Assembly: GCA_905178155.1 (NCBI GenBank)
Contig: CAJINV010000010.1
Location: 2,240,778 to 2,304,777, forward strand
Direction: 5' to 3'
Source: Amoebophrya sp. A120
Lineage: Eukaryota > Protista > Dinoflagellata
Length of the DNA stretch: 64,000 nucleotides
Within the stretch, counting starts at the first letter, position 1. Each line of letters starts with the position of its first letter. The notes below the pieces were generated by a model. That model worked only from the letters and a program-made list of their open reading frames with translations, was not told the origin of the DNA and made no database searches. Below, in pieces: positions 10,229 through 64,000 of this stretch. The position numbers and the translations under genes were made by a program.

Positions 10229-11650
10229 TCAGAGTTTAAGTAGGTCACTGTAGCCGGTGCCGGAGCGAATGCGAACTGCTAGGAAGAAGAAGAAGATCAA
10301 GATATTATAAAAAGGTTGAGGTTGTGAAAAAATAAAGTGATTGTCGAAGACACGTCTCCAACTATAGTACCAGTAGCACAACTTTGATGAAAAGCGACAT
10401 GGCGTCGCCGGCCGCTCCACTTTCTCCTCGAGCGGCTTCTGTTCTTCTGTCCCATGATTTTTACACCGTGAGAAAAGCTTCGGCACCCGGGTCCGGCGCG
10501 AAGTCGCGGGCACTGGCAGGAGGATGGAAAAACCCCAGGCTGTCCTCGCCCGGCACGGGAACTGGGTCCGACCCGTCGTCTTGTTGGGCGGACGGCGCTG
10601 CGAGAAAAGCCGCAGCGCCGGCGCCAACTTCGCGGTGGTCTTCCGTAGGAGGGCCTCCCCCATATGGATTGCAAAAGTGTCTGGGTCTGGAAGAATCCGA
10701 GATCTGTCATGCAGTTTTTACCCGACCAAGATCGTCTGACATGCACGCTCCAGCATCACAGACTTTGAGCACTTATCCCAATGCCTAATCATCATGACAA
10801 ACCCCCTCTCTTGCAAACAAGAAATGGGGCTTCTTGCTAGCCATGCATGACAAATTTTGTCATATTAATGTAGACTTCGCATCACAAATTGGAATCCGTC
10901 CAGACCCAGACATTTTTGCATTTGATACCCCAGTTTCTTGCACGAAAGACGAGCAGCAGCCGTCCTCCGCAGCGGGCGTCGGAGCCGGGGCCACCTGCAC
11001 GGCCGGTGGCGCAGGCGGATCGCGGCCCGGGCCCGGCGTCGGGCTTGGGCTCCGATTGGCTTCCTCGGCGGGGGCCATGTTCTCCGTGCTCGGGCTCGGC
11101 GCCGGACTTGTTGTAGTCGGCGCCGGACTTGTCGTCGGACTTGTAGTAGGCGGCGCCGGACTTGTCGTCGGACTTGTAGTAGGCGGCGCCGGACTTGTCG
11201 TCGGACTTGTAGTAGGCGGCGCCGGACTTGTCGTCGGACTTGTAGTAGGCGGCGCCGGAGTTGTCGTCGGACTTGTAGTAGGCGGCGCCGGAGTTGTCGT
11301 CGGACTTGTGGTAGGCGGCTCCGGGGTTGTAGTTGTTGTAGTAGTAGCTGTAGTTGTAGTGGTAGTCGGCTCCGGGAGCGTATTCGTCTTCAATTCCAAG
11401 TACCCGTTAATGTGATGATCGCCATACCCGTCTTTGGGCAAAATCTGGTGGTAGTTCTCGCCAGTAAAGATATAGTCGTACGTCCTACACTCATAGTCGT
11501 CAAAACCCCACACCCCCGCATGATACTTTCTTTCTTGATTTACGCAACACGGATTGTTCTTACAGTTAGACCAGCCCGTTTCATACTTATCGAAAGGTCC
11601 ACTAGGACATGCGGTTTGCTCGTCGAAGCATGTCATACTCATTACACCAA
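10229..11650 (-). CDS. 3' exons of a Cys-rich, mucin-like Pro/Thr-repeat protein; may be continuous with upstream exons up to 14387
   Basis: ORF 10860-11702 has a Cys-rich segment followed by (PAPPTTSPTTS)n. It joins ORF 10229-10663 in frame (QETG|EALLRK) on removing introner 10663-10927. The 5' boundary is approximate. Confidence 0.65.
10663..10927. mobile_element. Introner, family A
   Basis: Family A TIR; direct repeat CCCCA. Confidence 0.9.
11098..11320 (-). repeat. 33-bp coding tandem repeat (PAPPTTSPTTS, about 6-7 copies)
   Basis: Unit GGCGCCGGACTTGTCGTCGGACTTGTAGTAGGC repeated. Confidence 0.95.
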
Positions 11651-34500: not shown

Positions 34501-35713
34501 AACGGCCCCCATTGATATGATCATTACCGCCTGCTCCTCCTCCAAACGTCGACCTGACAAACCTAGAGATCCTTCGCACGAAAGGGATGCGCAACTGCAG
34601 TTCCTTATCGGTTTCCTCAAAATCCTGTCCCCTGGCTCGCCCCCGATCGACGTCCACCCCCGTCGGCAAAGCCCGCAACTGCTTGCACTGCATCTGCATG
34701 GATAACCCGCAGACCTGCGCTATCCTGAGTAAAAACGTCCCCACCCCAGAGCTGTCATGCAAATGTGCAATGACAGGAGCATTTGTAATGCGCAGCGCCA
34801 TGAGAGGCATTTCTAACCGTGTTTTGACATTTGTGATGCTGTCAACAGGATGAGAGATTGGCCTTCTCATGCAGCTTCCCGTGCCAACGAGCCCTACACT
34901 ACAGAGGGAAAGTTGTCATGCACAGCTCCCAAAACTTGGAGATTTGTGTTGCTAGATCCCCATCTTGACTCTGGGATCAGGACGTTTTTGCTCAGGATAA
35001 GCGCCAGGATGCTCGCTTCGATGGCCAGCCAAGTGGAGAAGAGCAAGAAAGCGCTGGGCATGACGAAAGCTAGGACGTAGATGATCAACAAGGACTCACT
35101 CGTTGACTGCTGGTTCGTATCAAATGCAAAAATGTCTGGGTCTGGATCTGGAAACTTGTGATGCAAGACAGTCAATAACAAACGCACTGTAATGCGCCGC
35201 CAAGCATGATAAGTTTTTTCGTGCTTCTGTGCTGCATATTGCGCATGAGAAACTGTGTTTTTGCATGACAGGCGAGAGAGGCTGTTTCGATGGCCCTACG
35301 CAATACAGATTTAAGGGCCATGCCTGATCAGCATGACAAATCTCGCAATCTTCCAGACCCAGACATATTTGCATTTGATAGTTCATGAACACCGGGGGGG
35401 AGAGCAAAATCCCTCTTTTCGTGTTCTCGTCCGCGGGCAGGTCGTAGTAGCTGGAATTCAGCCACCGGAAGGTCTCGTGGACCACGGGCGTGGGGACCAG
35501 GGCGATTAAAGCAAGCATTTCCAGACTGTTCAACGTGATAAAGATGTCCATGCGTTTTACCGTCATGTGCCATAAGTTGTTGATGTCTTCCCGATACAGC
35601 TGCACCCACTCTTTGCGCTCCGCGGTTTTTTGAGTGATCGCGGCTTGTTGCATCTTCTTGTCGAAATTGAAGGCCGCCTGGTTGTACAGCCACATTTGGA
35701 GAAAATCGGCCAT
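28529..35713 (-). CDS. Multi-pass membrane protein, paralog 2 (tandem paralog of 18697-27418); 7 introners
   Basis: All 7 junctions in frame. Motifs shared with paralog 1: YNQ..NFDK.MQQ, STW.A..ASI.A..CGLS, LPTG, QDFEETD...QLRIPF, YEPD, ILQ.H...D.YAR, LSQPT, YETP. Confidence 0.85.
30921..31242. mobile_element. Introner, family B
   Basis: Direct repeat TGCAG; frame restored. Confidence 0.88.
32388..32652. mobile_element. Introner, family A
   Basis: Direct repeat TGGGT; frame restored. Confidence 0.9.
32884..33207. mobile_element. Introner, family B
   Basis: Direct repeat CACGC; right end GTA instead of ATA; frame restored. Confidence 0.85.
33299..33452. mobile_element. Introner, family H
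   Basis: TIR type TATCCTGTGCAAAAG.ATCGTACT; direct repeat GGGAC; frame restored. Confidence 0.88.
33520..33731. mobile_element. Introner, family D
   Basis: Direct repeat AACCC; homologous to 6374-6580; frame restored. Confidence 0.9.
34721..34999. mobile_element. Introner, family C
   Basis: Repeat TGCGC/AGCGC; frame restored. Confidence 0.88.
35118..35380. mobile_element. Introner, family A
   Basis: Repeat GTTCG/GTTCA; frame restored. Confidence 0.88.
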
Positions 35714-42387: not shown

Positions 42388-43624
42388 CTTTCTAGAACGG
42401 ACAGGTGTCGTTGAAAAAGCAACCTTATAGAGAACTTCTATATATACTCCTTTACAATTTACAATTTATTCACGAGAAGATCTCGCGGTTGCAGCGAAAA
42501 ATCGACTGCTGGGTTGTAGTACTTCGAACAACAGACGCAAGAAAAAGAAGCAAAGGCTGAAGCATCAAGACAAGTCGCAAGGGAAAAAACGCCATCTTCG
42601 CCACGGCGTCAATACCACAGCTAAGTACCACCTGAGTAGTAGAACATCGTCACAACTCATCCACACGACATCTCTACTAGAGTGCTGCGAGAACCAAAGG
42701 AGAGGCCGCTCCTAGGAGGTTGTCGACCCAGATGAAATCATTTTCATCATTTTCGTTTTTCTTCGTCATCTTACACTTTTGGTTTGCACTGCCTCCTGAA
42801 TCAGGAAGGTCTTCAATCTCTTTTAAGTCTTTGCAATGCAAAATATAAGATGCGGCCATGCTAATAGTTACTTTTCCACAATGAGATGAGCCTTGTTGAG
42901 ATGATCAACTGTTTGTGTAGCTTTCTCTTTGCAGCTGCGGTCCTGCACTGGGGATCGGACTACTGATTATACTATCTTTCTATACAAAATCATAGGAACG
43001 AGTACACACGCACTCACTCCAGTCTAACTGGGCCAAAAAATGGCATGCAACATCTGTCTCATTGATCTGTATGAGACACAGGTCAGCAAAAAAATTAAAA
43101 TGACCTGGGCCAGCTCAACTTACATCTCTGCACCCAAAGAAATGATATAGATAGGCTTAGTAGCGTCTGGCGCCAGCTAAGGGAGTACCGTGCCAATCTT
43201 CAAGGGAGTCAAGGGAGTAAGTTCGAAAAGCGCTCAAGGTTAGCTCATTCAACCAAAACACAGCAAAGCCAAAAAAGATTTATGCGTAATTCAAATTCTA
43301 AAATCATACACAAATCGCCCGGTGGATTTCGACGCGTTTGATGGGACGTCTTTAGGGCGGTGGCGCTTTGCTAAGTGCTACCTCGTTCTGCTTCGTACGA
43401 GACTTTTGAAAATTAGCATAGCGATATATAGGATAGGTTTATGGAAAAGACCGACGAGCATCAATAATTCAGACAAAGACTCCAACTCGGATGTAGACTG
43501 GAAACAAAAATGAGCCCGAGCACTCTCTAACACGTTCAATAGATACCTGTACTTCTTTCTTACTGCTATAAAGCTGTAGCAGGATCCACCTTGAAAGAAA
43601 TTCTCTTCTGATAGACTTCCCCCC

Positions 43625-45916
43625 TTACACCATAGGAGCGTGTAGTTTCATGAACGCGCGCATCTCTTCGACCATCGGCAACGTGGTTGCGTGGTCTACT
43701 GTGTGGTCGCTTTCCAGCAAAGTCTTCCACTCGTCAAAAACCTGATTAGACATTACCGCGTCCCACACCCGTCCAAAGTCCGAATCTGCCGGGGGCTGGT
43801 TGTGGTCAAACTCCCAAAACAGCCATCCCGAGCGGGCGTTCCTCTTCTGATGTCGCGCGGACACTGCGGACAGGGCGCGGAAGGGGCCAATGTACGCCTC
43901 TCCCGCGGCATTCGGATTGCGGACGGCGTCATAGTTCCCAAAGAAACGCTGCCAGCTAGACGAGTGCAACAACATATCGCGCGGCGCAAGGGTCTTCCGG
44001 TTCATGCCGTGGCTCTTGAAAAGAATCGACTGGAAAGAAAGCCACAACTTCTTCGCCATCACAGTGTGTTCGTTCTGCCAAAAATCCAGCGGGTGCACCG
44101 GGTTGCCCGCCGCGTCCGTGTTTTCGCTCGTCCTTTGGGCCGGATTCCGGATTGGGAGTCTCGTGTCTGCGCATTGCCCGGCGATAACTCGATGGAAGAA
44201 CCGATTTAGCCAGCCGAGCCCCCGCCCCAGGCTCCCGTCGATGCCGTTGAACAAGTGGCCGTAGTTGGTGGAGGCGCGCAGGTGCTCGAGGTGATGCGGC
44301 GCGTAGACCAGCACGAATTCGAGAATCTGCAGCTGTCCCTCGGTGAGCTTCCCCGTGCTCCAGTTCCAGTCCGCGTCGGTCCACAGGTCGGCCGGGTCGT
44401 TAATGAAGTGCCTCGTCGTCGGGGCGTGCAGCGTGTGCGACGTGTAGGAAGCCACCCGCTCCAGCAGGCGCAGCGCGTTCCGCTTCTCCGCCACTGTGGG
44501 CAGGTCCGCCTGCAGCACCTCCTGCAGAGAAAAGTTTTTCGGTCTGTCCGGGGCGTCCGCGTCGCGGACCGTCCGCTTCGGGGTGGCGGAGATCAGGCTG
44601 CGCATCACCAGTCGCTCCACCATCGCCTGCCCCTCACCCGGCGGGGCGGGCTTTCTCGTCACGGGGGGAGGCGCCGGCGTCTGCGCGGACCGCGGCCCCT
44701 CCGCGGTCGCCCGCGTGGACGCGTAGTCGATATCGGGATGCGCCGCCCAAGCCGCCTCGCCCCAGGCTTGGAGGAGCGAATTCCGGTCGGTCCGGTCCAC
44801 CCACAGGTTAGCCCCGGTCTGCGGGTCCGTCTGGAGGTACTTGTTCCCGTTTCGGAACATGATGGTGTTCCCGACCTCGTCCGCGCGCCGGGATCCCGCG
44901 ACGATAGCTGCAAACACGAAGGCCCGAACCAACGCCGCTTCGCTGCTCAGGCCGGAGTAGGTTTGCAGCTGTTGCCACAACTGCGGGGCGTTCTTCTTGA
45001 CCATAAACAGGAGATACAGACTGGTCGGGATGTGCCGCACACTCCAGAGCGCCCCGTGGTTCCACGCCTTGTCCGGCTTCGCGTTGCCGACGGTTGCGCG
45101 GGGGTAGGGCATCCCCGTGAGAAAGGTGGACAAATTTTTCCCCAGTTGCCACATCCAGTGCTTTTTCCCGCTCAAAGCCGTATCCACGTAGAAGGCCGGG
45201 GAGGTGGTCGTGGTCGTGGTCGTGTTTCTGTTTCCGGCACCACCACCACCAGCGCTGCTCTTCTCGAACTCGTTTTCAGTAAACAGCTTGTTGTACTATT
45301 GCCACTGGCGTTCGCCCTGCGCCTGAAACCACTTGCGGCACCGGTGTTGATTCTGTGCGCCGACCGCAATCTGGTTGCAGATCGTTTTCCAAATCTGCCC
45401 GTAGGTGTTCGGGAACCCCTTCTGCGCCATCAATTTCCCGACGGAGCTCACACTAGGCGGAAGGATGTAGTTGTCACTTAGTATTCCGTCCGGGTGCGGC
45501 GGGCCGGGTGCAGGCGTCGGCGTCGGATTCGGCGTCGCATTCGGTGTCGGATTCGGTGTCGGACTCGGTGTTGGATTCGGCGTCGGATTCGGTGTTGGAT
45601 TCGGTGTCGGATGCGGCGGTCCTGTTGCTCTATTCTCGTTGTTTCTGTTCACCACCACTGACGCCACCGGCACGGCGACACAGGTGCAAACTGCTAAGAC
45701 TGCGAGCACAATCCAGAGCCAAAGGAATTTCTGGCAACAGGAACGAGGACTTTCGGCCGAACAACCGGAGTTAGAGTTCTTCTGCGCGGCACATCCTGGT
45801 CGGTCCTCTCCGTGGAGGAGCAAACTGTGTTGCTCCTGCTGTATTTCCAAGTCCTCTGCCTCGTGCAAAAATGAACCCCGCTGCTCCCGTGGGGCAACAC
45901 CTCCGGCCAACATCAT
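43625..45916 (-). CDS. Type II membrane protein with PTPN stalk and putative SidE/DupA-like PDE ectodomain; one in-frame TAG (possible pseudogene)
   Basis: ORFs 45296-45928 and 43625-45187 share one frame, separated only by a TAG at 45298-45296; TM helix FLWLWIVLAVLAVCTCVAVPVASVVV; motifs NHG, RRADE, HHLEHLR. Confidence 0.7.
45512..45612 (-). repeat. 12-bp coding repeat (PTPN)n
   Basis: Units of type GGATTCGGTGTC. Confidence 0.9.
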
Positions 45917-45954
45917 TTCTGCGCACAATAAAAATTTGGAAAGTAGTACAAAAT

Positions 45955-46680
45955 ATAGCCGCCGGGGCGGGGGTAGTGAGGTCGTGGGCGTTTTTTTTGC
46001 CGGCCGCAGCCTTGGCCGCGGCTTTGCTTTTTATGGGCTCGCCATACCGCCGTGAGTAACGTTATGCCGCACGGTATGGCGGCCACTTGGGAAACGTCGC
46101 AAATTTTGGCACATTTCCAAAATTCCTTTCCGAAAGCCAGCCCCGATGCTATGGGGCCGATCCGGGTGCCACGGGGGGCGCCCAAAAAGCGAAGAAAAAC
46201 CGGGCCCATAGCATGCGGATTGGCTTTGCGCGTCTGGGGCGCTTTTTATTTTTCGCGTTTTTATTTTTCACGCCGGCGCTTTTTGCAAAGCTTCCCAGGC
46301 TCTAAAACCGGCGAAAAGGCGGCCGCTTTCGCGGCCGCCCAAAATGCTCCGAAATCGCGGCCGTGCCATGCTGTTTCGCTGTTCTGATTTTGGGCGCGTT
46401 TTTTGCGCGCCCCTTTTTGGGCGCCCCAAATCGCCAGAAACCAAGGCGGCGGGCGCCTCAGAAGGGCGCCCCTTTTGCCGGCTCCCCTGCGTCGTTTTAT
46501 CAAGTGCGAATCGATAGTTTTCAACCGGGCTTGTTTGATGGCAACGCCCCGGCCGCTTGACAATTGAAAATTTTTTCTGTCAAAAAACACTTCCGCCCGC
46601 TTCAAAACTGCCGGTCGTTTTTCACGGGAGGTGGCAAAAAAACTCCCCGGTTAGAACCGTTCGGTGACCTCACTACATAC
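45955..46680. mobile_element. MITE/HINE-like GC-rich non-coding element
   Basis: 11-bp inverted repeat GTAGTGAGGTC (45973-45983) / GACCTCACTAC (46666-46676) bounds a compositionally distinct block of GC patches and A/T runs. Confidence 0.45.
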
Positions 46681-49117
46681 AAGTAGTTTAATTATATTCG
46701 AGGTTGCTCAATGTAGACTACTGGCACTAGGTCTCGATCCTTGATAAAAGGCAGCAAGGAGGACCACTTCTGAAAATGAACTTGCTGCACTTACAGGTTG
46801 CTTAGGCGTCAAGAAGCAAGAGTATTCAAAACAAGAAGCGCAGCGTCCACCAACAGGAGCAGCTCTCTGTAAGTTCGTGGTCTTCTAGTTCGATACGATC
46901 AAGAAAAGAAACAACGTGTCGAAAATCAATGAGTTCTCACAAAAACTCGACACAAAAATAGGGAGTCAGTGGCTGATTAATTTTCGTCTACTCGAGTGGT
47001 CTAGAGGTTTAGAGAGAGATCAAAACAGAAGTAGAGATCAAAATAGAAGTAGAGAATAGGTCTTCTAGTTGTAGAGATCAAAATAGAAGTACAGTCTCAG
47101 TCAGCCTTGGAATCCTGTAGCTTGTGCTGTTCTTCCATGCAGTGACGACCACGGGTTGCTCCTTCGATCTGAAAAAATCTTTACCGAATGACCACGAACA
47201 AGAACCTAATCCAAACTTAATATAATCATTTTTAAAAATTGACGGACTCAACTGATCAGGGCCACGACCTTGTTGTTTTTTGAGCCGCACAATCAGAAAT
47301 AAATATACGAGGACCAGGACCGAGCAGTGGAATTTCAAAAAAATTCTTTCTTTCGTCCACATTCACCGCGCAAGGAAGATTTGTGAAGATCCATCAAGGT
47401 GATTTCGATCATCGCGTTCATAATTTTCGATTGGTCTCTGTGATCTTCTGTGAGTGATCCAGATTTCAAAACATCGGCTACAACATGGTCTACTTAACGT
47501 TTTTTTCACCGACTACATCCTCGGCAAGATGACCAATGGCGCTGCTACTGCCGAAGTAGCTCGCTTTTCAATACAAATCCGAATCTGCTGAAGAACATGC
47601 TTTAGATTTTTTCAACAATTTGCTGTTGATCATGACGCGAAAACCCAAAGTTAGTCATCCATGCGTCAGTATTTTTTCACGTTTTTGAAGCAAATTACCG
47701 GCACGGAAATCATTTTCGTTTTCGTTTTTTTTGTAGTTTTTCGTCATCTTACGTGGAGTTTTATGGCAGAGATTATACAGCCTCATCTTACACTTTTATG
47801 TACTAGCTTGCTCTGCTTCCTGAAGCTGCGGAGTTCGTATATTGACATCAGGAAGGTGTGGGTCGTGTCCAATCTTTTTTACTTGCAATATTACTCTGTC
47901 GTGGATGTTGCGGCCATACTTCTATCCATCCGATTTTGGAATCAGCCGTGTCGTAACACGAATCATCCGAGAAGATCATCTTAATTTTTCTTTATCCGCG
48001 CTTCTAGTGCACTATCTTGCTCAGAAAACCAAAACCATAGAAACGAGCACACACGCACTCACTTCAGTATCTATGTATAGATGGGCAAGATGAAATAACT
48101 GGTGGCACGCAGAATCTCATTACAGAAAGAAAAATCTCCTGGGAAGTCGGGAAGAAAAATCAAGATCTCCTCTTTGGCCACTTAAAGCTAGACATAATTT
48201 CCACCAATGTGATTATTTCTTGTTCTTTAGAACAAGAACTGCACCCAAAAAATAAAAAGCGCGACTTAATTCTACCGTGATCCTTTCGTCCGGTGCATTT
48301 CGTCGCCTTCGGCATCAAGGCGGCGCTTTCCCAAGCACGAACGCGTTCGCGCGAGAGCTGTGTCCACCTACACGGCCGCCTGTAGCTACAGAGATTTTAC
48401 AGTGATGAGAAGTTGTGAATTATAACTGGATGCACCAATTTTTTAAGTTTTATAAATTGCACAAGGAGCGCCAAGATTACAACTAAGTTCGTTGCATCTG
48501 TATGTATGTGTTAAGCATAGCAGAAAGCCTGCAGATAGTAGAGAAGCCAGAATTCTGACATATCAATATCGAAGCTGTTCTGCTGATTTCTCTGTCCGGG
48601 CCGGATATAATTATCCGACTCGGCGTACTTAACTCTTCGTCTTCCGCTTTCCTAGCACACCCTTGTTGCTGGTGATGTATTATGACTATGCAGTTGAGAA
48701 TGAAAAATAAAATCAGCGATTGGACCTCGAAATATAGATGCACAAAGTGGTCGGTAGAGAAATAAGCAAAAATCCAGGATTGCTTATTCCTCTACCGTTT
48801 TATCAAAACTGTAACTTTACTTCATTGTTAGCTGTTAGGTTGAAAACATTATCTCGTCCACAACTCGTTTGCATACACCTCCAAGAGATTATCATCATAC
48901 AGTCAAGAGTACATCACGTCTGAAAAATTATACAGCGAGAAATTGATTTTCATAGAGAATATTGCAACGCAGAGTCCAAAATTAAGACCGAAAGCAGATC
49001 AGCCTAGAAACGACTGCAGAAGCTTATTTTCTCCCGTACTTACAAAAACAAGACCCGCTTGTAATTACGGTGTACTCTAAGTGTGATCTATTTTACCGGT
49101 ACAATTATACAAGGAGT

Positions 49118-51525
49118 TTACGTAAACAAACCCAGAGCTTTCCGGAAGTCAGCGACAACTTGTGTGTAGACTTGCGGATCCATGGAGGACTGCATGTTCG
49201 CCAGCGCCAGCTGGCATGCGGTTTTGTTGTGGCCCCAGTTTTTCACCAAGGTTGCGTTCCCGTCTACAATCTGGTGGCGGAACCTATAGCGGTGCGACAT
49301 CTGGCGCGCCAAGTTAGCCGTCGGGAAGGGCGTATCGAACATCTGCTGGATTTCGCTGATGTTCCCCGGCCTTCGCTGGTACTCTTTGTGCTCGAATAAC
49401 AAGCTTGCCTGGAAGAGGGTCAGCGTCGTGATGCCTTCCCGGATCCTCTGCCGGCTCTGCGCGGTGGGATGCTGCATCGCAATCTGCTGCCCAGGGGGTG
49501 CGCCGTTTTGTTGCACCCAGCGCAGGGTTCCCGTGTTCGGCAAAACCGCACCGAGCAGCTTGAAGATCGCGTAGCGGCCCAGGTGGAAACTCGCCGCGAC
49601 AAAGTGCGGCGAAAAGTGGTCGTAATTGCACGTGGGCCGCAAGTGCCCTAGGTCGTGACCAAAGTGGAACACGGGCCAGAACAGCCAGTCGGCCTGTTTT
49701 TCTGTCGCGGCGGGCCCCGCCGCGGGGTCGTAGGTCAGAGACAGTGGGAAGTCTTTGGGCATGTTCATGTAATATAGGGCGTGGTTCGGATCCGTGGTCT
49801 CCGGCAGTCCCGTTGGCATGCGCGGCTGGTAGTCACGTTTGACGGCTACCTCGATGTGGTGAATGCTCAAGGTAAGCCGGAACAACTCGTCCAGGAAGGC
49901 GTCATGTTGTTCCGCGGAGGCAAAAAATTCCGCGCCAAATCGCATTTCCCGGGCTACCTCGCGCACGAACAGGAATCCCAGCATGTTGTCCAGGGTGGAC
50001 AACCGACCCAGATTTCGCTTTAGCTCGCCCACCGTGTTCATCCACGCCGGAAAGCGCGCCGCCTGCAGCTTCGCAGTAAAGCTTGCTTCGGCCGCGGGAG
50101 ACAACGCACTGAGATCTGCAACCGTCTTCCACCGCATCCAGGGCTGCGTCAAACCGTCCACGTAGCGGAAAGCACGCCCCATACCCCCGCAAAGGGCAAA
50201 CATTTGCTTCAAGAAGGCCTTTGCCTCCTCGGGGGCTGCCGTCGTTTGCATCTGAACGCCGGCTTTGTGCTGGAAGTATTTGAGCCAAAATCCCCAGTAA
50301 TTGTTCTGCGTGTCGTCCTGGCCCGCGGGGCCGTGGTCGAGGTAACTGGTTAAGAGAAGAGTAGAAGCGAATTGCTCCACAAACCACGTGACGTGATGGT
50401 TCCCGCGGCGCGGCACAGGGCGCGGGCCTTTGTCCGGATACTCGATAAGCAGGACGTGGTCGTGCACGTTCTGCAGGACAGACTCCACAAACTTTCCTTC
50501 CCCATTCGGGCCGCAACATTTCTCGATCCGCATACCGCCGGCCGACCCGCGCTTTCCGGTGACTGCAGACACCCCTCCATAGTGAAATCGGTACTTCTCT
50601 GGCGTTCCGCTTCCGCCGGCGGTCAGTTCGTTGATGAGTACGTCGTGCTGCTTGCCCCAATTACCGCCCAAAAGCTTATCAAATGCAAAAATGTCATCTG
50701 GGTCTGGAAGATTGCGAGACTTGTCATGCTTGTCTGGGATGTTTGTGATGCGTGTCCAAGAAGAGACCCTTTTGTCTGTCATGCAAAAACGCAGTTTGTC
50801 ATACGAAAAACGCAACACGATTTCTCATGCTTGGCTGGGCATTACAAAGCATTCACTAGTCCCAAGGCAGCATTACAAGTTTCCAGACCCTGACCCAGAC
50901 ATATTTGCATTTCATAAAGCTCGGACCCGGTCAAAACGTCTTTGCCCACAAGTTGCGGTGGTGGAGTAGGCGGAGTCGGTGGTGGAGTAGGCGGAGTCGG
51001 TGGTGGAGTAGGCGGAGTCGGTGGTGGAGTAGGCGCAGTCGGTGGCGGAGTAGGCGCAGTCGGTGGCGGAGTAGGCGCAGTCGGTGGCGGAGTAGGCGCA
51101 GTCGGTGGCGGAGTAGGCGGAGTAGGCGGAGTCGGTGCTGTCGGAGTCGGCGCTGTCGGAACCTGCGTGGGGTTTCTACTCCTCTCCTGGTTGTTGTGTC
51201 TCTCCGCTACCACAATGGCCACCGGCACGGCGATGCCGGTCAACACTCCCAGGACCGCGAGCAGAATCCAGAGCCAAATGAATTTCTGGCAACAAGAAGA
51301 AGCGCGCCGAGGACCACTTCCTTCTCCTTCTGGCGCAGAGTTCTGCGCTTGTTGGGAAGTAGTTGTCAAGAACGGCGTGGCTTCTCCAGCATTCACCTCC
51401 TGAGCTTGAGCCTCAAGAACTTCGCCGTGCATGGGAAGCAAACTGCCTCCCTCCGGGTCTTCTACGTCGACCTTGCTGAAAGACGACATCTCATCCCGCG
51501 ACGCTGCTGCACGAGCGGCCAACAT
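49118..51525 (-). CDS. Type II membrane protein with PPTAPTP stalk, paralog of 43625-45916; 1 introner
   Basis: Joins GSEL|LGGNWG on removing 50677-50916; shares SCCQKF.WLWI.LAVL.V....AVPVA and H.L.HLR...NY.H with the paralog. Confidence 0.8.
50677..50916. mobile_element. Introner, family A
   Basis: Direct repeat AAGCT; frame restored. Confidence 0.9.
50956..51160 (-). repeat. 21-bp coding repeat (PPT[A/P]PTP)n
   Basis: Unit GGTGG(T/C)GGAGTAGGCG(G/C)AGTC. Confidence 0.95.
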
Positions 51526-53113
51526 CTCTACTTATTTACAACAACAGTTTCGACCTGATAAATTATTTTATAGAGAGACAACAAGCAGGACTGATAAAAA
51601 CTCGTCTCCCGTGTTTACTTTACTCGACAAAATGAGTTTTAATGATCCAAAAGTAAGGGCAAAGCAAAAAAGCGCAGCAGCTTCCTCAACAAGAAGCTTC
51701 CTCTAGCGAGTAAAGTTGTTGTCGAACAAGCTACTTAAGTACAGTGTGCGGCCGAGACTACTAACACAGATCTTCGCCTAACGCAAAACACAACACGTCG
51801 GTCCCAAGGGATAATTGTTGTCAATAAATCTACACAGCTTCGCTTTAAATCCAAAAATTTGAATAAACCTCGTCGGCGACGTCGTAATTGTAGAGACAAC
51901 CCACTGGCTGATTACTAGTGTTCGCCTACGATGGAGGTTTGGTCTGTTTGTAGAGCTCTATTCCAAATAGTACAAAAGTATCGGCCTTGTCTTTGCTGTT
52001 CCTTTATGAAATATAAGAAGTCCCTGCAGGCAATTCCTCCGACCACGACTTGTTCCTTCGATAAAGATCCTCACCGATTCTTGACAAAAAAAATCAACCG
52101 TCTTTGATTTTGATGACGGACCATCATGGTCAGGACCACTACTTGATCATTTGATTTTTCTAACCATCAGACATTGTCATGTGGAACCATCAGAAATCAT
52201 CGCGTGGACGAATGCTGCTGTCTTCCGAGTACAAGGACCGAGCACTGCTGCGACATACTTATTACTTCGGAGATGGATCCTTATGCTTTTTCCGACACGA
52301 TTTAGAAACTGTGATCCGCTTTTTCAAATAGAGATGAACGATTTTGTGATCGAGACGAAGGATGAAAACAAACACCATCCGGACTGAGTCACGCTGCGAT
52401 TGAGCAGGACGCGCTTACTTTTCTTCAGCGTCGACTTTCGTTCCTTGTTTTTCTTGCCAAAAAATCAATTGGAGTGCAACTGATAGTATCATTTTCAGAA
52501 GCGAGCTACTTCGTGCCTGCTTCTTTCGGTGCAGGTCTCTTGCGACTTTCCATTGCTTTGGTCTCTTGCGGTTCTTGCATCGGGTCGCCTGCGCCAGGGG
52601 TAAAATCTAGGCAGGGACTCTTTTACCCACCGAATCTAGTGGTAGTGCTCCCACATCTCCACCATCATGCCGCAGTGAGCATGTCATAGTTCGTCACAAT
52701 TTTGATTTCTGCTCTATGTTGTTTTAAGTCCAAGACAAATTTGTTGTTGTTGATGAAGGGGACTGCATCATACATGAACATTGCAAAGTAAATCTACTTC
52801 TACGTACTATAACTTCGGGGGAGAAATACCAATACCAATCATACACTATACTCATACAACAGCGGAAATACACGTCAAATTCCAGAGGGAAGAAGTTTGA
52901 CTAAAAGCACAGTAGCAGGGCGACCTGAACAATGCAAATTCTGTATAACTGTAATCATCAGCTTAACAGCCACAGAGGTGCTGCGATGTCAGCATGGAAC
53001 CTCCTCCGAGGTTGTGGCTCTCTGTGGTCGTCTCCGGCACTGCTTACTTCGTACTTGAGGTTCTTCTTGTGCTGGGTGCGGGTGGTGATAATGATAAACT
53101 CCTGCTCTGATGA

Positions 53114-55904: not shown

Positions 55905-58900
55905 TCACTTCGCCGCCTGCTCCGCCTGTTTGTTCATTTTATTCACCGCGTCAATTTGCATCTCGTCTGCAAGGTCCGGCGAAATGTGCTCCAGTTTCAA
56001 CTGCATCTCCACTTTGCCCGACTCCTTACTGTAACTGTGCTGCGCCACGTTATTCAGGTTAGAACTTTTCACGCTGCTCTTGCCGTTTATGCAAGAAAAA
56101 AACTCTGCGATGTATTGTGCAGATTGCTTCATTTCCTACTCCTAGTCCTAGCCATAGCCTGTTAGCATGACATCAGACATGCTCTGCATGACAGAGAAAG
56201 TCTGCCATCAAGCACGGCTAGTATCCGAATCGGTGTGATGAAATCACGACCTATGAAATGACCCAGGGTTGTTGTGCCACTCGTCCAGCAATTGCTGGCC
56301 GGGGCCGGCATGACACGTGTATTAGCTTATTTGTAGTAGCATGCATTGCGTTTAGCTAGTTACTATACAGAAGATTTCCTGTACTTAACACGGCACGTTT
56401 CTTCTTGCATACTGTTTATTTTCTTCGGAGTGGGCTGGTTCGAGCTCTTGCTGTTGCCTTTCTGGTATGCATTGCAAAAGCATCGCCGTAAAAGAGATCA
56501 TCGCAGTCATGCATCACAAGCGTCTTTCTTCTAGATGTGTAAATTCTGTTTTTCATGCTGACGAAATTTGTCATGCGATTTCCACTAGTCTAGGATACTT
56601 TTGCACAGGATATGTGGTTGACTTCTATCCGCTCCAGCTGTGCGCTGCCCTGACCCACCAGTTGGTTTACGATCGCCTCGCGCTCGCCGTCAATGTGCAC
56701 CTTCGGGATATTGTTGCTGTGCCGGGCCGCTTATGCAGTGCAAAAGTATCGTACTAGTAGTAATTGCAATACAAGTTAGCTCAGCATGACAAATGAAATT
56801 TGTCATGCTGTTTTGCCTTGGGATGGAGATTTGTAATGCATGATTGCGATTACTACGCGTACGATACTTTTGCACAGGATACCGCTCCCGCGAAAAGCAC
56901 TTTCGTGTAGGCTTCGGCAGGATTTTTGATCGCCTCCTCCGCTTCCCGCTTCTGTAGGTGGTCCGTCCTGGCCTTGATCAGACTCTGCAGGGAAAAGAAG
57001 GGGTTCTCGAACACGCTCTCCGGCTCCGCCTGGCCATGCAGATTGCTGTACGTGTTCGCCTATCAAATGCAAAAATGTCTGGGTCTGGAAGATTGCGAGA
57101 TTTGTCATGCTGATCTGGCATGGCCCTTAAATCTGTATTGCGTGGCCACAAACAGCCTCTCTCGCCTGTCATGCAAAAACGCAGTTTCTCATGCGGGATA
57201 CGCAGCACAGAAGAACGAAGCAACTTGTCATGCTTGGCGGCGAATTGCAGTGCGTTTGTTATATGACTGACTTGCATCACAAGTTTCCAGACCCAGACAT
57301 TTTTGCATTTCATATCGCCGGACCAAAGCTGTTTTTCTTCGGTCCAGCCCCATCGACGCCTTTTGCGCCGCCGGCCGCATGCTCTTCGAATTATCATCTG
57401 TAAAAACGTCCCCACCCCAGAGTCAAGATGGGGATTTTGCAACACAAACCTAGAAGTTTTTGCTGTTTCGCATGAGAAATTTGGACTCGTAGTCGTGTAG
57501 TGCTGTTTGAAGTAGTGAAGACGCATCACAAATGGACTACTTCATCGTGATTCCATTTCCAGCATCACAAACCTCCAGATAGCATTAGAAAATGGCTCTC
57601 ATGTGGCTGCGCAAGAGGAACATTTTAGGCATGCCACTTTGCATGACAAGTCTGGGGTGGGGACGTTTCTGCAAATCATACGAATGCGGTCTTCATCATT
57701 TTGTCCAGCGACATCCGCCCAAACTTCTTCTGCTGGTGACTTTCGATCACCTGATTGATCGAGTTGCTGTGTACTTCCGTCGGCTTGTTCTTGTTCGCGC
57801 CGAATATCCCGCCAGGATCGGCAATGTTGTCGAGGTTCTGTTGCTATCCTGTGCAAAAGTATCGCACTCGTATTTTGCAGTCATGCATTACAAATCTTGA
57901 TCTTAAGGGAAATCAGCATTACAGATTTCATTTCTCATGCTGAGGAAATTTGTAATGCATTTATATATACGAGTACGATACTTTTCAATTCATAGTTGCA
58001 GGTGGTCCAGCTTCTTCGTGCCGAAGCACATGGCCAGGTCGTTCTCGGTATGAATTGCAAATATGTCTGGGTCTGGAAGAATGGAAGTTTGTCATGCTTG
58101 TCTGGCATGATTCGACAATCTGTGTTGCATAGGCACGAAGAGGCCCTCTTAATACCGGTCATGCAAAAACGCAGCTTGCCATGCGGAATACGCAACACAT
58201 GGCAGCCAAAATAAAATTTGTCATGCATAGCTGCGTATTGCAGTGCGTCTATCATTTTTCACTTTTAGCATTACATGTTTCCAGACCCAGACATATTTGC
58301 AATCCATACTCGAGAATCTTTGTCTCGACTGGATCGTCCACTAACTCCGCAATCTGGCCCCGGTAGTCCTGCAGCAGTGCCCGCAAGCAGGACCACAGTT
58401 GCTTCTGGAACAAGGATTTTTTCTTGATCATGATTGTCTTCAGGTCCAGCAGCACTGGGAGAATTTTCTCTTGGAGTAGTCTTTTCTGCACGGTTCCCCG
58501 GAGATTATCCATCGCGAGCTGCTGCTTGTCATCGCTTGGGTTTTTTTCGTCCTCCGGTTGGTCAATTTCCAGGCCGCCCTTGCCCAAAACCATGCAGCGC
58601 ATCTCTTTGCTGGACAACAAAATCAGGCAGTCCATCAACACACACCCGGCTGGGGTCATGACATCAGTGGGAAACGGCACGCAGTTCGTATTTTTCTGCG
58701 ACGGGTGTCAAAAGGAAAAACCCCCCTCTCCTCATAGTAAAAAGAAATTTCTGACGCTGGATTTGGATACACAAATCTGCAAGACGGACCCGGTTCTTTG
58801 TGGTCACAAATCTGCATCACAAATTTTCAGAAGGATACGCCTTTCAACATGTGAACCAGGGGGTATTTTTCCTCGCAATAACGGGTCGTTTGCGATTTCC

Positions 58901-61900: not shown

Positions 61901-64000
61901 AAAATGTATTTTGAATTAGATAAAACTACATCATCATGAGGAAATTGGAATTGCTGTACTTCATCTATCCAGACTTGTATTAGAAGGTTCCTACGTGCTA
62001 CGTGCAACGGAGTCAAATATTAGTTAGTATACCTGTCCACCAAGCTGGTATATGTCCGGGCCAGGTCTCCCAGCCCGATAATCAAGTTGTTCCGCACAGT
62101 CACGGATTCCTGCTCGTACATATGGATTGCAAAAATGTCTAGGTCCGGAAGATTCTAAACTTGTGATGCTGTCTCTGGATTTTAAAAAAAATTGTATTGC
62201 ATGTTGACCAGCAAGAGGACTCCAGTTTGTGCTACGCGGAAAGGGCATTTCTCATGCGGTAGAGGCATCGCAAAGTCCTGTAAAAATCTGTGATGCTAGG
62301 GCATGCATCACAGACATCTTCATGGATCATTCAAAATATGCATGACAAGTCTCAGAATCTTCCAGACCCAGACATTTTTGCATTTGATAAGACAGGTGGG
62401 CCACCAAAAAGTCGATGTTTTCCTTCGCCAGCTTCCCCTTTTTCAAACACAGCTTGATCAGCGTCACAAACGCCTGCGCCCGCACGACGGTCGGGAGCTG
62501 CAGTCTCTCCGTTCGTATGCAGTGCAAAAGTATCGGACTCGTATAAATGCATTACAAATTTCCTCAACATGAGAAATAAAATTTGTAATGCTGATATACC
62601 TCAACAAAAAGATTTGTAATGCATGACTGCAATACGAGTACGATACTTTTGCACAGGATAGTTCGTCGCGAATACTCGTTGAATTCGGACACGTGTCCGG
62701 ACGCGATCTTGCGCACGTCGAACACCGTCTGGTCGGAAATCGCGTCCGGTTTCAGCACGGCTAACTCCCCCAGCGTGAACAGGTGATTTTGCACGGCGAG
62801 CCGATCTCCGTTCCGCGAGAAGTCGCCACCGTGCGCCTCGAGCACCTCCTGCGTGGCGGGGGACACGTGCCCCTGACAGAGCCACTCTAAGCGATAGGAG
62901 ATGTGCGCGAGCAGGAACTGGAAGTGCTCGTTCCGCACTTTATCCGTTCTTTCCTTTGAGTCCAGAAAGTTCAAACACTGCATCATCTCCTTGATCAGCA
63001 TAGGCTCGGCGGAAAACTCGGTCAACCGCGCCGTGAAATCCTCGGATATCAAATGCAAAAATGTCTGGGTCTGGAAGGATACAGCTTGTCATGCTAAATC
63101 TGGATCATGCAAAAGTTTGTGTTGCATGATTACCAAAAGCTGTCCGTTTTTGACTAAGTTGGGAGTGAGTATCTCATGCAGGATAAGCATGATACAGATC
63201 TCACAGATTCTGTCATGCTAGATCCTGCATTCCAGACCTCATGTGTCATGTTGAACCTGCATGAGAAATCTTGTACTCTTCCAGACCTAGACATATTTGC
63301 ATTCCATATCGGAAAGCCGCACGCGGTCCTGCTCGGGAATGGTATTGATCGGGCGCTTATCAAATGTAAAAATGTCTGGGTCTGGATGATTGCGAGATTT
63401 GTCGTGCTGATCTGGCATGGCCCTTAAATCTGTATTGCGTGGCCACAAACAGCCTCTCTCGCCTGTCATGTAAAAACGCAGTTTCTTATGCGGAATACGC
63501 AGCACAGAAGCACAAAGCAACTTGTCATGCTTGGCGGCGCATTACAGTGCATTTGTTATTGACTGACTTGCATCACAAGTTTCCAGACCCAGCCATTTTT
63601 GCATTTCATAGCGTTTTTGTAAGAGCGCGAGGGTCTTGCCGGCGACGAGGTTCGCGGAGGGGTCGTCTTTCACCTTTATTGGATGTAGATTTATTGCACA
63701 AGGATCTATACCATTGTGCTGGTGGTAAGTCCTTTCAAATATTTCTCATGCACTTCTTGTTCCAATACAAGGTCGCGCATGTCTTTGTCTTAGATAACGA
63801 CGCATGAGAAAAAATCATTTCGAGTCTACTAGTCACTTCTACCTATAGTACCTTGTCGAACAACTCAATGAGCAGACTGGGTGACAATTTCGCATCCTGT
63901 GCAAAAGTATCGCACTCGTACCATTAATTGCATTTATGCATTACAAATCTCGTTCCTAAGGCAAATGCGCATTACAAATTCAAGTTGTAATGCTGAGCCA
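55905..64000 (-). CDS. NCAPD3: Condensin II HEAT-repeat subunit CAP-D3, 3' part; 16 complete introners in window; final exons below about 56410 unresolved
   Basis: Joined exons give LPTVVRAQAFVTLIKLCL, VRNNLIIGLGDLARTYTSLVDRH, LLAEDFVKLRGTLLYRL, RATIYKFML and ILPVLLDLK..LLQDYRGQI, colinear with CAP-D3 motifs as I recall them. Confidence 0.85.
56466..56612. mobile_element. Introner, family H
   Basis: Repeat TCTGG/TGTGG; frame restored. Confidence 0.8.
56732..56881. mobile_element. Introner, family H
   Basis: Direct repeat CCGCT; frame restored. Confidence 0.9.
57061..57314. mobile_element. Introner, family A
   Basis: Direct repeat TCGCC; close copy of 63358-63610. Confidence 0.9.
57392..57680. 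mobile_element. Introner, family C
   Basis: Direct repeat CGAAT; frame restored. Confidence 0.88.
57845..57994. mobile_element. Introner, family H
   Basis: Direct repeat GTTGC; frame restored. Confidence 0.9.
58049..58308. mobile_element. Introner, family A
   Basis: Repeat CTCGG/CTCGA; restores ILE|NDL. Confidence 0.88.
58706..58880. mobile_element. Introner, family B (short)
   Basis: Direct repeat ACGGG; left end TGT; frame restored. Confidence 0.82.
58912..60498. mobile_element. Introner, family C, expanded by a nested 1.29-kb insertion
   Basis: Family C TIRs at both ends; direct repeat TTGTG; restores DTEH|KLSE. Confidence 0.9.
58998..60285. mobile_element. Nested insertion with 14-bp TSD, possibly a non-LTR retroelement remnant
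   Basis: AGTCACGCATGACA at 58984-58997 and 60286-60299; this motif is single-copy in the uninterrupted family C element 21177-21455. Confidence 0.8.
60536..60685. mobile_element. Introner, family H
   Basis: Direct repeat CGTGT; frame restored. Confidence 0.9.
60754..61012. mobile_element. Introner, family A
   Basis: Direct repeat CATCT; frame restored. Confidence 0.88.
61185..61414. mobile_element. Introner, family I
   Basis: TATGAGAGTGCACA...TGTGCAGTGTCATA; direct repeat GTGCG; restores ILFA|RNKNL. Confidence 0.85.
61587..61848. mobile_element. Introner, family A
   Basis: Direct repeat TGCTT; frame restored. Confidence 0.9.
61888..62032 (-). other. Canonical GT-AG intron in CAP-D3
   Basis: GACAG|GTATAC...CCTCAG|ACATG; gives YTSLVDR-HVDKM. 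Confidence 0.85.
62121..62389. mobile_element. Introner, family A
   Basis: Repeat GTACA/AGACA (2 mismatches); frame restored. Confidence 0.85.
62516..62660. mobile_element. Introner, family H
   Basis: Direct repeat GTTCG; frame restored. Confidence 0.9.
63047..63308. mobile_element. Introner, family A
   Basis: Direct repeat TCGGA; frame restored. Confidence 0.9.
63358..63610. mobile_element. Introner, family A
   Basis: Repeat GCGCT/GCGTT. Confidence 0.88.
63893..64000. mobile_element. Introner, family H, truncated by the window edge
   Basis: CATCCTGTGCAAAAGTATCGCACTCGTA left end. Confidence 0.75.

What the first reader, a model, noticed from the sequence alone, without database searches (positions are those of the whole stretch)
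43625..51525. Tandem stalked membrane proteins with SidE/DupA-type phosphodiesterase motifs in a eukaryotic parasite
Seen: both paralogs have a short N-tail, one TM helix, a Pro/Thr stalk and a domain of over 500 aa. Paralog 43625 has FLTGMPYP, NHGALWSVR (His codon 45056-45058), AAIVAGSRRADE (Glu 44876-44878, 60 residues later) and HHLEHLR (44276-44296). Paralog 49118 has LLIEYP, RGNHH, GGMGRAF and HDLGHLR (49637-49657). Known, from memory: Legionella SidE and DupA PDE domains, which catalyse or reverse phosphoribosyl-ubiquitination, use NHGxxHxxR, GRxxE about 60 residues later, and HxxxxxR. Inference: these may be surface-displayed HD-fold/SidE-like enzymes acting on host ADP-ribose or ubiquitin conjugates. 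Caveats: the second His of the first motif is Trp, the Glu-to-His spacing is much longer than in SidE, and paralog 49118 lacks the Glu at that position.
Basis: inference. Interest (0 to 1): 0.75.

Follow-up and report, generated by a model that had tools for sequence, protein, structure and literature searches.

The report
Parasite membrane proteins with SidE-like site
A marine parasite of algae (Amoebophrya) carries two neighbouring genes for membrane-anchored, stalked proteins whose large domain likely is a very distant relative of the phosphodiesterase domain of Legionella SidE effectors and would cut nucleotide-type phosphate bonds outside the parasite cell; one copy is interrupted by a stop codon, the other lacks a predicted catalytic residue, and the substrate is untested and probably not ubiquitin.

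Summary
The motifs are present at the stated coordinates, in Amoebophrya sp. A120. Gene A (43625-45916) has an in-frame TAG between stalk and domain, also seen in a DNA run. Gene B (49118-51525) becomes one 720-aa protein only after a 245-nt introner is spliced out. One outside relative was found, an intact membrane protein of Amoebophrya AT5 (35% identical to A). It keeps the motifs and matches 11 of 13 conserved SidE-PDE positions (A 9, B 8). A low-confidence model of A (pLDDT 37), built without SidE sequences, matches HD/PDEase-clan folds: ranks 1-15 are class I phosphodiesterases (Z 6.6-7.8), SidE-family domains score Z 5.7-6.4. The metal ligands are lost, while the SidE-type His-Glu-His order and arginines are kept. 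No Pfam hit, whole-domain profile comparisons are not significant, and the Glu-to-His spacing is two to three times SidE's. Verdict: probably a new membrane-anchored eukaryotic variant of the HD fold with a SidE-type site (about 0.5); not a member of PF12252; action on ubiquitin conjugates is unsupported (under 0.1).

The parts
43625..45916 (-). Gene A: one intron-free frame of 763 codons with an in-frame TAG at codon 207; N-tail, TM, stalk, linker, HD/PDEase-like domain
   Evidence: continuity across the stop supported by AT5 orthologue P0004 matching both sides
45647..45727 (-). Gene A transmembrane helix (residues 64-90), preceded by Cys-Cys; type II topology inferred
45488..45622 (-). Gene A Pro/Thr/Asn stalk (12-nt repeat)
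45296..45298 (-). In-frame TAG separating anchor and stalk from the domain
   Evidence: same letters in a DNA-run contig, 0 differences
45035..45124 (-). Gene A motif 1 region: PYP ... NHGALWSVR (His 45056-45058 = SdeA H277-like; Trp in place of the second His; Arg 45035-45037)
44876..44911 (-). Gene A motif 2: no HD doublet; R-x-x-E (Arg 44885-44887, Glu 44876-44878 = SdeA E340-like)
44276..44296 (-). Gene A motif 3 HHLEHLR (His 44294-44296 = SdeA H407-like; Glu in place of the family's Asp; Arg)
43625..45154 (-). 509-aa ORF downstream of the stop (P0001, held by NCBI); holds all three motifs but no anchor
45948..46680 (.). High-copy repeat element 25 bp upstream of the ATG of gene A, flanked by a 7-bp direct repeat; not seen upstream of B
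49118..51525 (-). Gene B: two exons, 720 aa after splicing, intact frame; N-tail, TM, stalk, divergent domain
51208..51285 (-). Gene B transmembrane helix (residues 81-106)
50956..51171 (-). Gene B Pro/Thr stalk (21-nt repeat)
50676..50920 (-). 245-nt introner (non-canonical intron; the cut can slide within the direct repeat)
   Evidence: element type described in PMC7789003 (passages)
50393..50452 (-). Gene B motif 1 region: YP ... RGNHH (His 50396-50398); Glu where the family has Arg
50165..50188 (-). Gene B motif 2 GGMGRAFR: G-R kept, Arg in place of the catalytic Glu
49637..49657 (-). Gene B motif 3 HDLGHLR (His and Arg kept, Gly in place of Asp)

Best explanation
These are two tandem paralogous genes for single-pass, stalked membrane proteins of Amoebophrya whose large C-terminal domain is likely held outside the parasite cell, is predicted to have an HD/PDEase fold, and would, in its intact form, act as a metal-free SidE-type phosphodiesterase or pyrophosphatase on nucleotide-like substrates. 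Shown: architecture, motifs, the TAG in A, the introner in B, and an intact AT5 orthologue with the same motifs. Inferred by analogy with SdeA and DupA (PMC8605245, passages): the first His attacks a phosphate, the Glu assists it, the third-motif His activates water or a hydroxyl; the kept arginines would bind phosphates (recalled role, from no call). A 100-130 residue insertion lies between the Glu and the last His. The most likely substrates are ADP-ribose, NAD or other nucleotide pyrophosphates met in the vacuole or host nucleus, either for scavenging or for removing a host signal. In A120, gene A is probably a recently broken copy, or yields only an unanchored 509-aa form; gene B is intact but lacks the Glu, so it would be a binder or an enzyme with changed chemistry.
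For: Fold: the AlphaFold2 model of A, from 3 Amoebophrya sequences only, is most confident in the helices between and before the motifs (block pLDDT 53-71 at 81-130, 56-66 at 311-330). Among 48,161 chains, ranks 1-15 are all class I PDE domains (Z 6.6-7.8, rmsd 4.3-5.8, 197-218 residues aligned); six SidE-family entries follow (lpg1496 Z 6.4 and 6.0, SdeD 6.1, SidE 6.0 and 5.7, SdeC 5.8), with other HD-domain proteins such as Cas10d and Ppx (their HD assignment is recalled). In the second look 21 PDE chains score Z 6.8-7.7 and the next row 4.8. Residues: of 13 conserved positions in 31 SidE-PDE sequences, P0004 matches 11, A 9, B 8 (register set by eye and by hhalign). His-to-Glu spacing is 60 (A) and 59 (P0004) against 51-61 in the family and 59 in DupA (PMC6941232). 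A SidE PSSM picks motifs 1 and 3 unaided in all three proteins; P0004 and A+P0004 beat 1000 of 1000 shuffles. The motif 1-2 slice aligns to SidE-PDE over 84 columns in register, E 0.0023, above 200 of 200 column shuffles. Topology: P0004 has net +2 before and -2 after the TM; a Cys pair in the linker is shared by A and P0004; 3-6 sequons per domain. Niche: the parasite grows in the host nucleus and degrades chromosomes (PMC9478091, passages).
Against: The model has mean pLDDT 37, pTM 0.42, and no Z reaches 8, which the tool says may mean only a common helical arrangement; Foldseek found nothing at E 0.001. No Pfam, NCBIfam, PHROG or PDB sequence hit. Whole-domain hhalign against SidE-PDE: E 0.22 and 0.09, the second in a wrong register. 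The first PSSM attempt gave only 29 of 1000 for A and P0004 and 416 of 1000 for B; the narrower blocks were a second try, and there A alone (98 of 1000) and B (324 of 1000) are not significant and motif 2 is not placed. These tests are against one chosen family, not corrected for a database, and 22 of the 31 family sequences were fetched by a motif-1 pattern. Family-invariant Gly117 is lost in A and P0004, Asp204 in A and B, the second His in all three; Glu-to-His spacing is 170-194 against 57-95. The motif-3 slice fits the HDxGH motif of bacterial PDE-like proteins as well (E 0.003-0.014). Charges around the TM are neutral in A and B, so topology rests mainly on P0004. Class I PDEs score higher than SidE domains in the fold search.
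Confidence: 0.5

Rival explanations
1. A degenerate offshoot of eukaryotic class I cyclic-nucleotide phosphodiesterases (or another HD protein) that lost its metal site; the SidE-like residues are convergent or chance, and the domain binds rather than cleaves a nucleotide.
For: Class I PDEs hold ranks 1-15 of the fold search and 1-21 of the second look; HxLxH, conserved in all three proteins, resembles HDxDH/HDxGH (E 0.003-0.014); needs no gene transfer.
Against: PDE motifs YHNxxH, HDVDH and CADVSN (PDE8A) are not matched; at the diagnostic positions the proteins have N-H-G, R, RxxE and HxLxxxR as in SidE-PDE. Within the model the HDxDH register is excluded: PDE8A aligns 205 residues over model 28-419 and chain 482-805, while putting His334 on His596 allows at most about 200 (assumes a sequential alignment).
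Confidence: 0.2
2. One reading: surface enzymes that make or reverse phosphoribosyl-ubiquitination, or strip ADP-ribose from host proteins.
For: Triad order and first spacing match SdeA and DupA; the parasite lives in the host nucleus (PMC9478091, passages).
Against: No ADP-ribosyltransferase domain detected in either gene or in 22 other ORFs of the window scanned (intron-split genes are poorly covered). The triad alone does not give activity on ADPR-ubiquitin: only DupA and DupB of the PDE-only Legionella proteins processed it (PMC6941232 section 8). Neither A120 copy has both an intact frame and a full triad.
Confidence: 0.1
3. Lineage-specific helical surface proteins (adhesins or decoys) unrelated to the HD clan; motifs and fold match are chance.
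For: No significant database hit outside Amoebophrya; low model confidence and Z under 8.
Against: The fold hits are coherent, one superfamily with about 200 aligned residues; the residues invariant in all three proteins include His, His, Arg, Arg, as in an active site; the orthologue moves toward, not away from, the SidE consensus.
Confidence: 0.2

Closest known systems
SidE_PDE domain (Pfam PF12252): Legionella SdeA/SidE PDE, DupA, DupB/SdeD, Lpg1496 (PDB 5zq2, 5zq3, 6b7m, 5bu0)
   Same: Order and context of motifs (PY, RxNHG..R, RxxE, HxLDxxR), His-to-Glu spacing of about 60, absence of the HD doublet, fold match Z 5.7-6.4
   Different: No HMM hit; Trp for the second His; Gly of G-R lost; Glu-to-His 170-194 against 57-95; single-pass membrane anchor and stalk; eukaryotic; no ADP-ribosyltransferase domain detected
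Class I cyclic-nucleotide phosphodiesterase catalytic domain (Pfam PF00233; PDE4D 1zkn, PDE8A 3ecm)
   Same: Best fold matches, Z 6.6-7.8 over about 200 residues
   Different: Metal ligands of YHNxxH, HDxDH and the last Asp are not kept together; no HMM hit; domain predicted on the outer side of the membrane
Amoebophrya sp. AT5.2 g3120.t1 (P0004, 671 aa, unannotated)
   Same: 35% identical to the domain of A (172 of 497 columns), N-terminal TM, same motifs, intact frame
   Different: Very short N-tail and a Gly/Ala linker instead of a Pro/Thr stalk; no stop codon

Membership tests
SidE_PDE (PF12252) | HMM score above the 25-bit cut-off | tested here: not met
   No hit at E up to 10 for A, B or P0004; 23 of 23 control sequences hit
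SidE_PDE (PF12252) | His-Glu-His in order, His-to-Glu 51-61 residues | tested here: met
   A 80/140/334, P0004 189/248/435; not met by B, which has Arg at the Glu position
SidE_PDE (PF12252) | Glu-to-His spacing 57-95 residues | tested here: not met
   194 (A), 187 (P0004), 170 (B) against 31 family sequences
SidE_PDE (PF12252) | Conserved second His (29 of 31), Gly117 (31 of 31), Asp204 (31 of 31) | tested here: not met
   Trp in all three; Gly kept only in B; Asp kept only in P0004
SidE_PDE (PF12252) | HD/PDEase-type helical fold | tested here: inconclusive
   Z 5.7-6.4, rmsd 4.4-6.8, 165-184 aligned, from a pLDDT-37 model
SidE_PDE (PF12252) | Triad residues meet in one pocket | not testable with these tools
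   The tools return no coordinates or residue pairs; only helix positions and aligned ranges
SidE ligases / Dup deubiquitinases | Cleavage or transfer of ADPR-ubiquitin | not testable with these tools
   Needs an assay
SidE ligases | Adjacent mono-ADP-ribosyltransferase domain | tested here: not met
   No Pfam hit; only about 120 residues, modelled as helices, follow the HD-like part
Class I cNMP phosphodiesterase (PF00233) | Metal ligands H (YHNxxH), H-D, D | tested here: not met
   Trp, no HD doublet at motif 2, Glu/Gly/Asp at motif 3
Class I cNMP phosphodiesterase (PF00233) | PDEase fold | tested here: inconclusive
   Ranks 1-15, Z 6.6-7.8, all under 8
HD domain (PF01966) | HD doublet after a hydrophobic helix, 25-60 residues behind the first His | tested here: not met
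   Absent there in all three; B has HDLGH only at motif 3, 247 residues behind the first His

The most novel reading that the evidence does not exclude
Amoebophrya displays a eukaryotic, membrane-anchored SidE-type phosphodiesterase on the surface that faces the host nucleus and uses it to cut ADP-ribose conjugates (DNA-damage or ubiquitin-linked signals) while it digests host chromosomes, with a catalytically altered paralog acting as a reader or decoy: SidE-type His-Glu-His chemistry outside bacteria.
Probability: 0.15. Interest if true: 0.85.

Novelty: new variant of a known kind. Interest (0 to 1): 0.55.

Why it matters
In the papers read here, SidE-type PDE chemistry (a phospho-histidine relay on an HD fold) is described for Legionella effectors. 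Three full-text searches listed no paper describing a eukaryotic or Amoebophrya version; the library lacks most subscription journals, and I could not check eukaryotic members of PF12252 in InterPro. A stalked, membrane-anchored version in a nucleus-invading parasite that controls algal blooms would widen the family and give a first testable candidate for a host-facing enzyme among the many orphan Amoebophrya genes. It might also point to the substrate of the Legionella PDE-only effectors that ignore ubiquitin. If the fold call fails, this is an ordinary orphan surface-protein pair.

Tried and rejected
No whole genome is held for the window, so A120 paralogs outside it were not searched; within the window tblastn found none. 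Word-indexed protein searches found only the genes' own products (only about 8,000 candidates scored, and P0004 itself was missed). The exhaustive search with the A+B profile gave 4 proteins at E up to 0.001: three from this locus and P0004. ESM Atlas: all feature scores under 0.9, all TM under 0.5. No relative in viral contigs, metagenomes (0 of 46 motif loci confirmed by tblastn), 401 genomes of the class around G001 (best E 0.003, no motif) or phages. Foldseek on PDB and on viral structures: nothing at E 0.001. The model of B failed (pLDDT 34, no residue above 50) and its search returned only helical hairpins, with no HD-clan family listed: uninformative. TAG read-through as a genetic code: considered unlikely, because PMC12005148 (passages) confines ambiguous stops to the Karlodinium strain. 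TAG inside a hidden intron: unlikely, because the orthologue leaves room for only one extra codon. Horizontal transfer: GC3 is 0.81 (A) and 0.74 (B) against 0.49-0.74 in ten other ORFs; too weak, and no donor is known. Rfam: no match. Earlier findings of the scan: none by sequence or for these words; one search listed unrelated PDE-like proteins. Rows dropped: of 27 loci, L023 (broken), L025 (not coding for the family), L018 and L027 (near-duplicates) were left out of A4, and L001 also of A5; of 18 loci, 9 entered A5 (L074 duplicates L006; 8 were not placed by my motif search). Four papers were not held. No complex prediction was run.
Full report
Setting. The window is eukaryotic and comes from Amoebophrya sp. 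A120, by the source name of P0002, a model of gene B. Most genes lie on the minus strand and the window holds many copies of an introner family, as described for this strain (PMC7789003, passages).

Observation. All quoted motifs and coordinates are correct. Two features were missed. Gene A is one frame of 763 codons with TAG at codon 207, between linker and domain. A contig of run X1 covering 42458-45974 shows 0 differences; this run may be the source of the assembly, so it argues against an assembly error but is not an independent isolate. Ambiguous stop codons are reported only for the Karlodinium strain (PMC12005148, passages). Gene B is split by a 245-nt introner; removing it gives 720 aa and the junction of P0002. 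The two domains are homologous but distant: 24% identity, local alignment above 500 of 500 shuffles.

Relatives. Pfam, NCBIfam, PHROGs, PDB sequences and the ESM Atlas gave nothing usable. The exhaustive HMMER search with the A+B profile returned 4 proteins, one of them new: P0004, Amoebophrya AT5.2 g3120.t1, 671 aa, E 2.4e-22. It has an N-terminal TM, an unbroken frame, 35% identity to the domain of A, and weak similarity to A's linker upstream of the TAG, including two cysteines. So A descends from a continuous anchored protein. No relative was found in viral, metagenomic, phage or 401 bacterial genome searches.

Comparison with SidE-PDE by sequence. I collected family members from public genomes; 23 of 23 in alignment A4 hit PF12252, and A5 (31 sequences) retrieves lpg1496, SidE, SdeA, SdeC, DupA and SdeD from the PDB. 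Twenty-two of the 31 were selected by a motif-1 pattern, which inflates conservation there. At 13 conserved positions P0004 matches 11, A 9 and B 8. The orthologue test is the most independent sequence evidence: P0004 was found after the motifs were named, keeps the His, Glu, His and three arginines, and has the SidE residue where A deviates (RxNH, HxLD). His-to-Glu is 60 and 59 (family 51-61; DupA H67/E126/H189 and SdeA H277/E340/H407 in PMC6941232); Glu-to-His is 194 and 187 (family 57-95). The statistics are modest. Whole-domain hhalign gave E 0.22 and 0.09. A three-block PSSM gave 29 of 1000 shuffles for A and P0004 and 416 for B; with narrower blocks 0 of 1000 for P0004 and for A+P0004, 98 for A, 324 for B, with motif 2 not placed. 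The motif 1-2 slice of the three proteins aligns with SidE-PDE over 84 columns in the expected register, E 0.0023, probability 13%, above 200 of 200 column shuffles; SidE-PDE against bacterial PDE-like HD proteins scores E 0.007 in the same test. Against this, the motif-3 slice fits the HDxGH motif of those bacterial proteins as well (E 0.003-0.014).

Comparison by fold. AlphaFold2 on A's domain with only the three Amoebophrya sequences gave pLDDT 37, best in the helices that carry or precede the motifs. Foldseek found nothing. The full structural alignment against 48,161 chains put 15 class I PDE domains at ranks 1-15 (Z 6.6-7.8, about 200 residues aligned, rmsd 4.3-5.8), followed among short helical matches by six SidE-family entries (Z 5.7-6.4), Cas10d, exopolyphosphatases and SadB. 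In the second look, 21 PDE chains (Z 6.8-7.7) stand above the next row (4.8). No Z reaches 8, so each match alone is weak; the agreement on one superfamily, and with the motif reading made beforehand, is what counts. The aligned ranges favour the SidE register for motif 3: in PDE8A the last Asp is residue 726 (chain position 245 with the chain starting at 482), 79 residues before the end of the aligned range, and the matching residue 337 of the model is 82 before its end. The HDxDH register could give at most about 200 of the 205 aligned pairs. The model of B failed and is uninformative. Whether the triad converges in space could not be measured.

How it probably works. Shown: anchor, stalk, motifs, lesions. 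Inferred: type II topology, clear from flanking charges only in P0004 and supported by a shared Cys pair and sequons; an HD/PDEase fold (about 0.7); loss of the metal site, since the second His is Trp and the HD doublet is absent; and SidE-type covalent catalysis, in which His277 attacks the beta-phosphate helped by Glu340 and His407 acts as base (PMC8605245, PMC10143409, passages). Overall about 0.5 for an active SidE-type hydrolase in the intact orthologue. The parasite first sits in a vacuole, then grows in the host nucleus, takes up nutrients across its membrane and degrades host chromosomes (PMC9478091, passages; those passages do not say whether a vacuole membrane remains in the nucleus). 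Nucleotide pyrophosphates such as ADP-ribose or NAD are therefore the likeliest substrates. Ubiquitin conjugates are unlikely: no transferase domain was detected, and Legionella proteins with the full triad but no such activity exist (PMC6941232 section 8; PMC11696984 passage). In A120, A looks recently broken (one stop, GC3 0.81, a repeat element 25 bp upstream), though an unanchored 509-aa product is possible; B is intact but lacks the Glu, the motif-1 Arg and the Asp, so it would bind or catalyse differently. Expression is untested.

Membership and novelty. The proteins fail PF12252, PF00233 and PF01966 on defining features, so they are not filed as members; they probably work like a SidE-type PDE. 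Searches for a eukaryotic or Amoebophrya version listed nothing relevant, and PMC6176090 has no occurrence of 'phosphodiesterase' or 'ADP-ribos' in its main text (supplements not read, and they may hold expression values for these genes). Papers seen: passages of PMC7789003, PMC12005148, PMC10143409, PMC11696984, 10.1101/745331, PMC9478091, PMC6176090, PMC8605245; passages and section 8 of PMC6941232; search listing only for PMC9673145. The primary structure papers on SdeA and Lpg1496 were not held.

Verdict. Observation partly confirmed; interpretation partly supported. New variant of a known kind, interest 0.55: a plausible eukaryotic, membrane-anchored SidE-like HD domain resting on three sequences and one low-confidence model, with neither copy in this window both intact and complete in its triad.

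Noticed in passing
window 45941-46687: About 733-bp element between 7-bp direct repeats (ACTACTT on the minus strand), with an inner inverted pair and internal hairpins; summed contig depth in the thousands in run X1, one copy in the window; sits 25 bp before the ATG of gene A and may have disturbed its promoter.
   Followed up: partly
window 42700-47800 against 47700-52300: Non-coding flanks of A and B share short stretches at 4.9-5.0 kb spacing and the TM region is 70-79% identical in DNA, yet the domains are only 22-25% identical in protein and A is closer to the AT5 protein (35%) than to B. Fast divergence or replacement of B's domain, or gene conversion at the 5' end; unexplained.
   Followed up: partly
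window 45296-45298: Against the AT5 orthologue the TAG is one extra codon rather than a substitution; it could be a short duplication or an element footprint.
   Followed up: partly
whole window (e.g. 26972-27228, 35118-35380, 57058-57314, 63355-63610): Many further copies of the introner family found in gene B; they produce false ORF ends reading MQICLG.
   Followed up: partly
window 10860-11642 (-): Another Thr/Pro-rich stalk behind a Cys-rich segment; no Pfam hit; probably an exon of a further surface protein.
   Followed up: no
P0002, P0003 (NCBI models of gene B): The public annotation splits gene B into a partial 386-aa model with a frame-shifted end and a 119-aa fragment, although the window gives one 720-aa frame.
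   Followed up: yes
L084:556-1470, L087:1174-2019: Weak SidE_PDE-family matches that still carry an HD doublet (HDAGREAD, HDSGN): possible links between metal-binding HD proteins and SidE-type domains.
   Followed up: no
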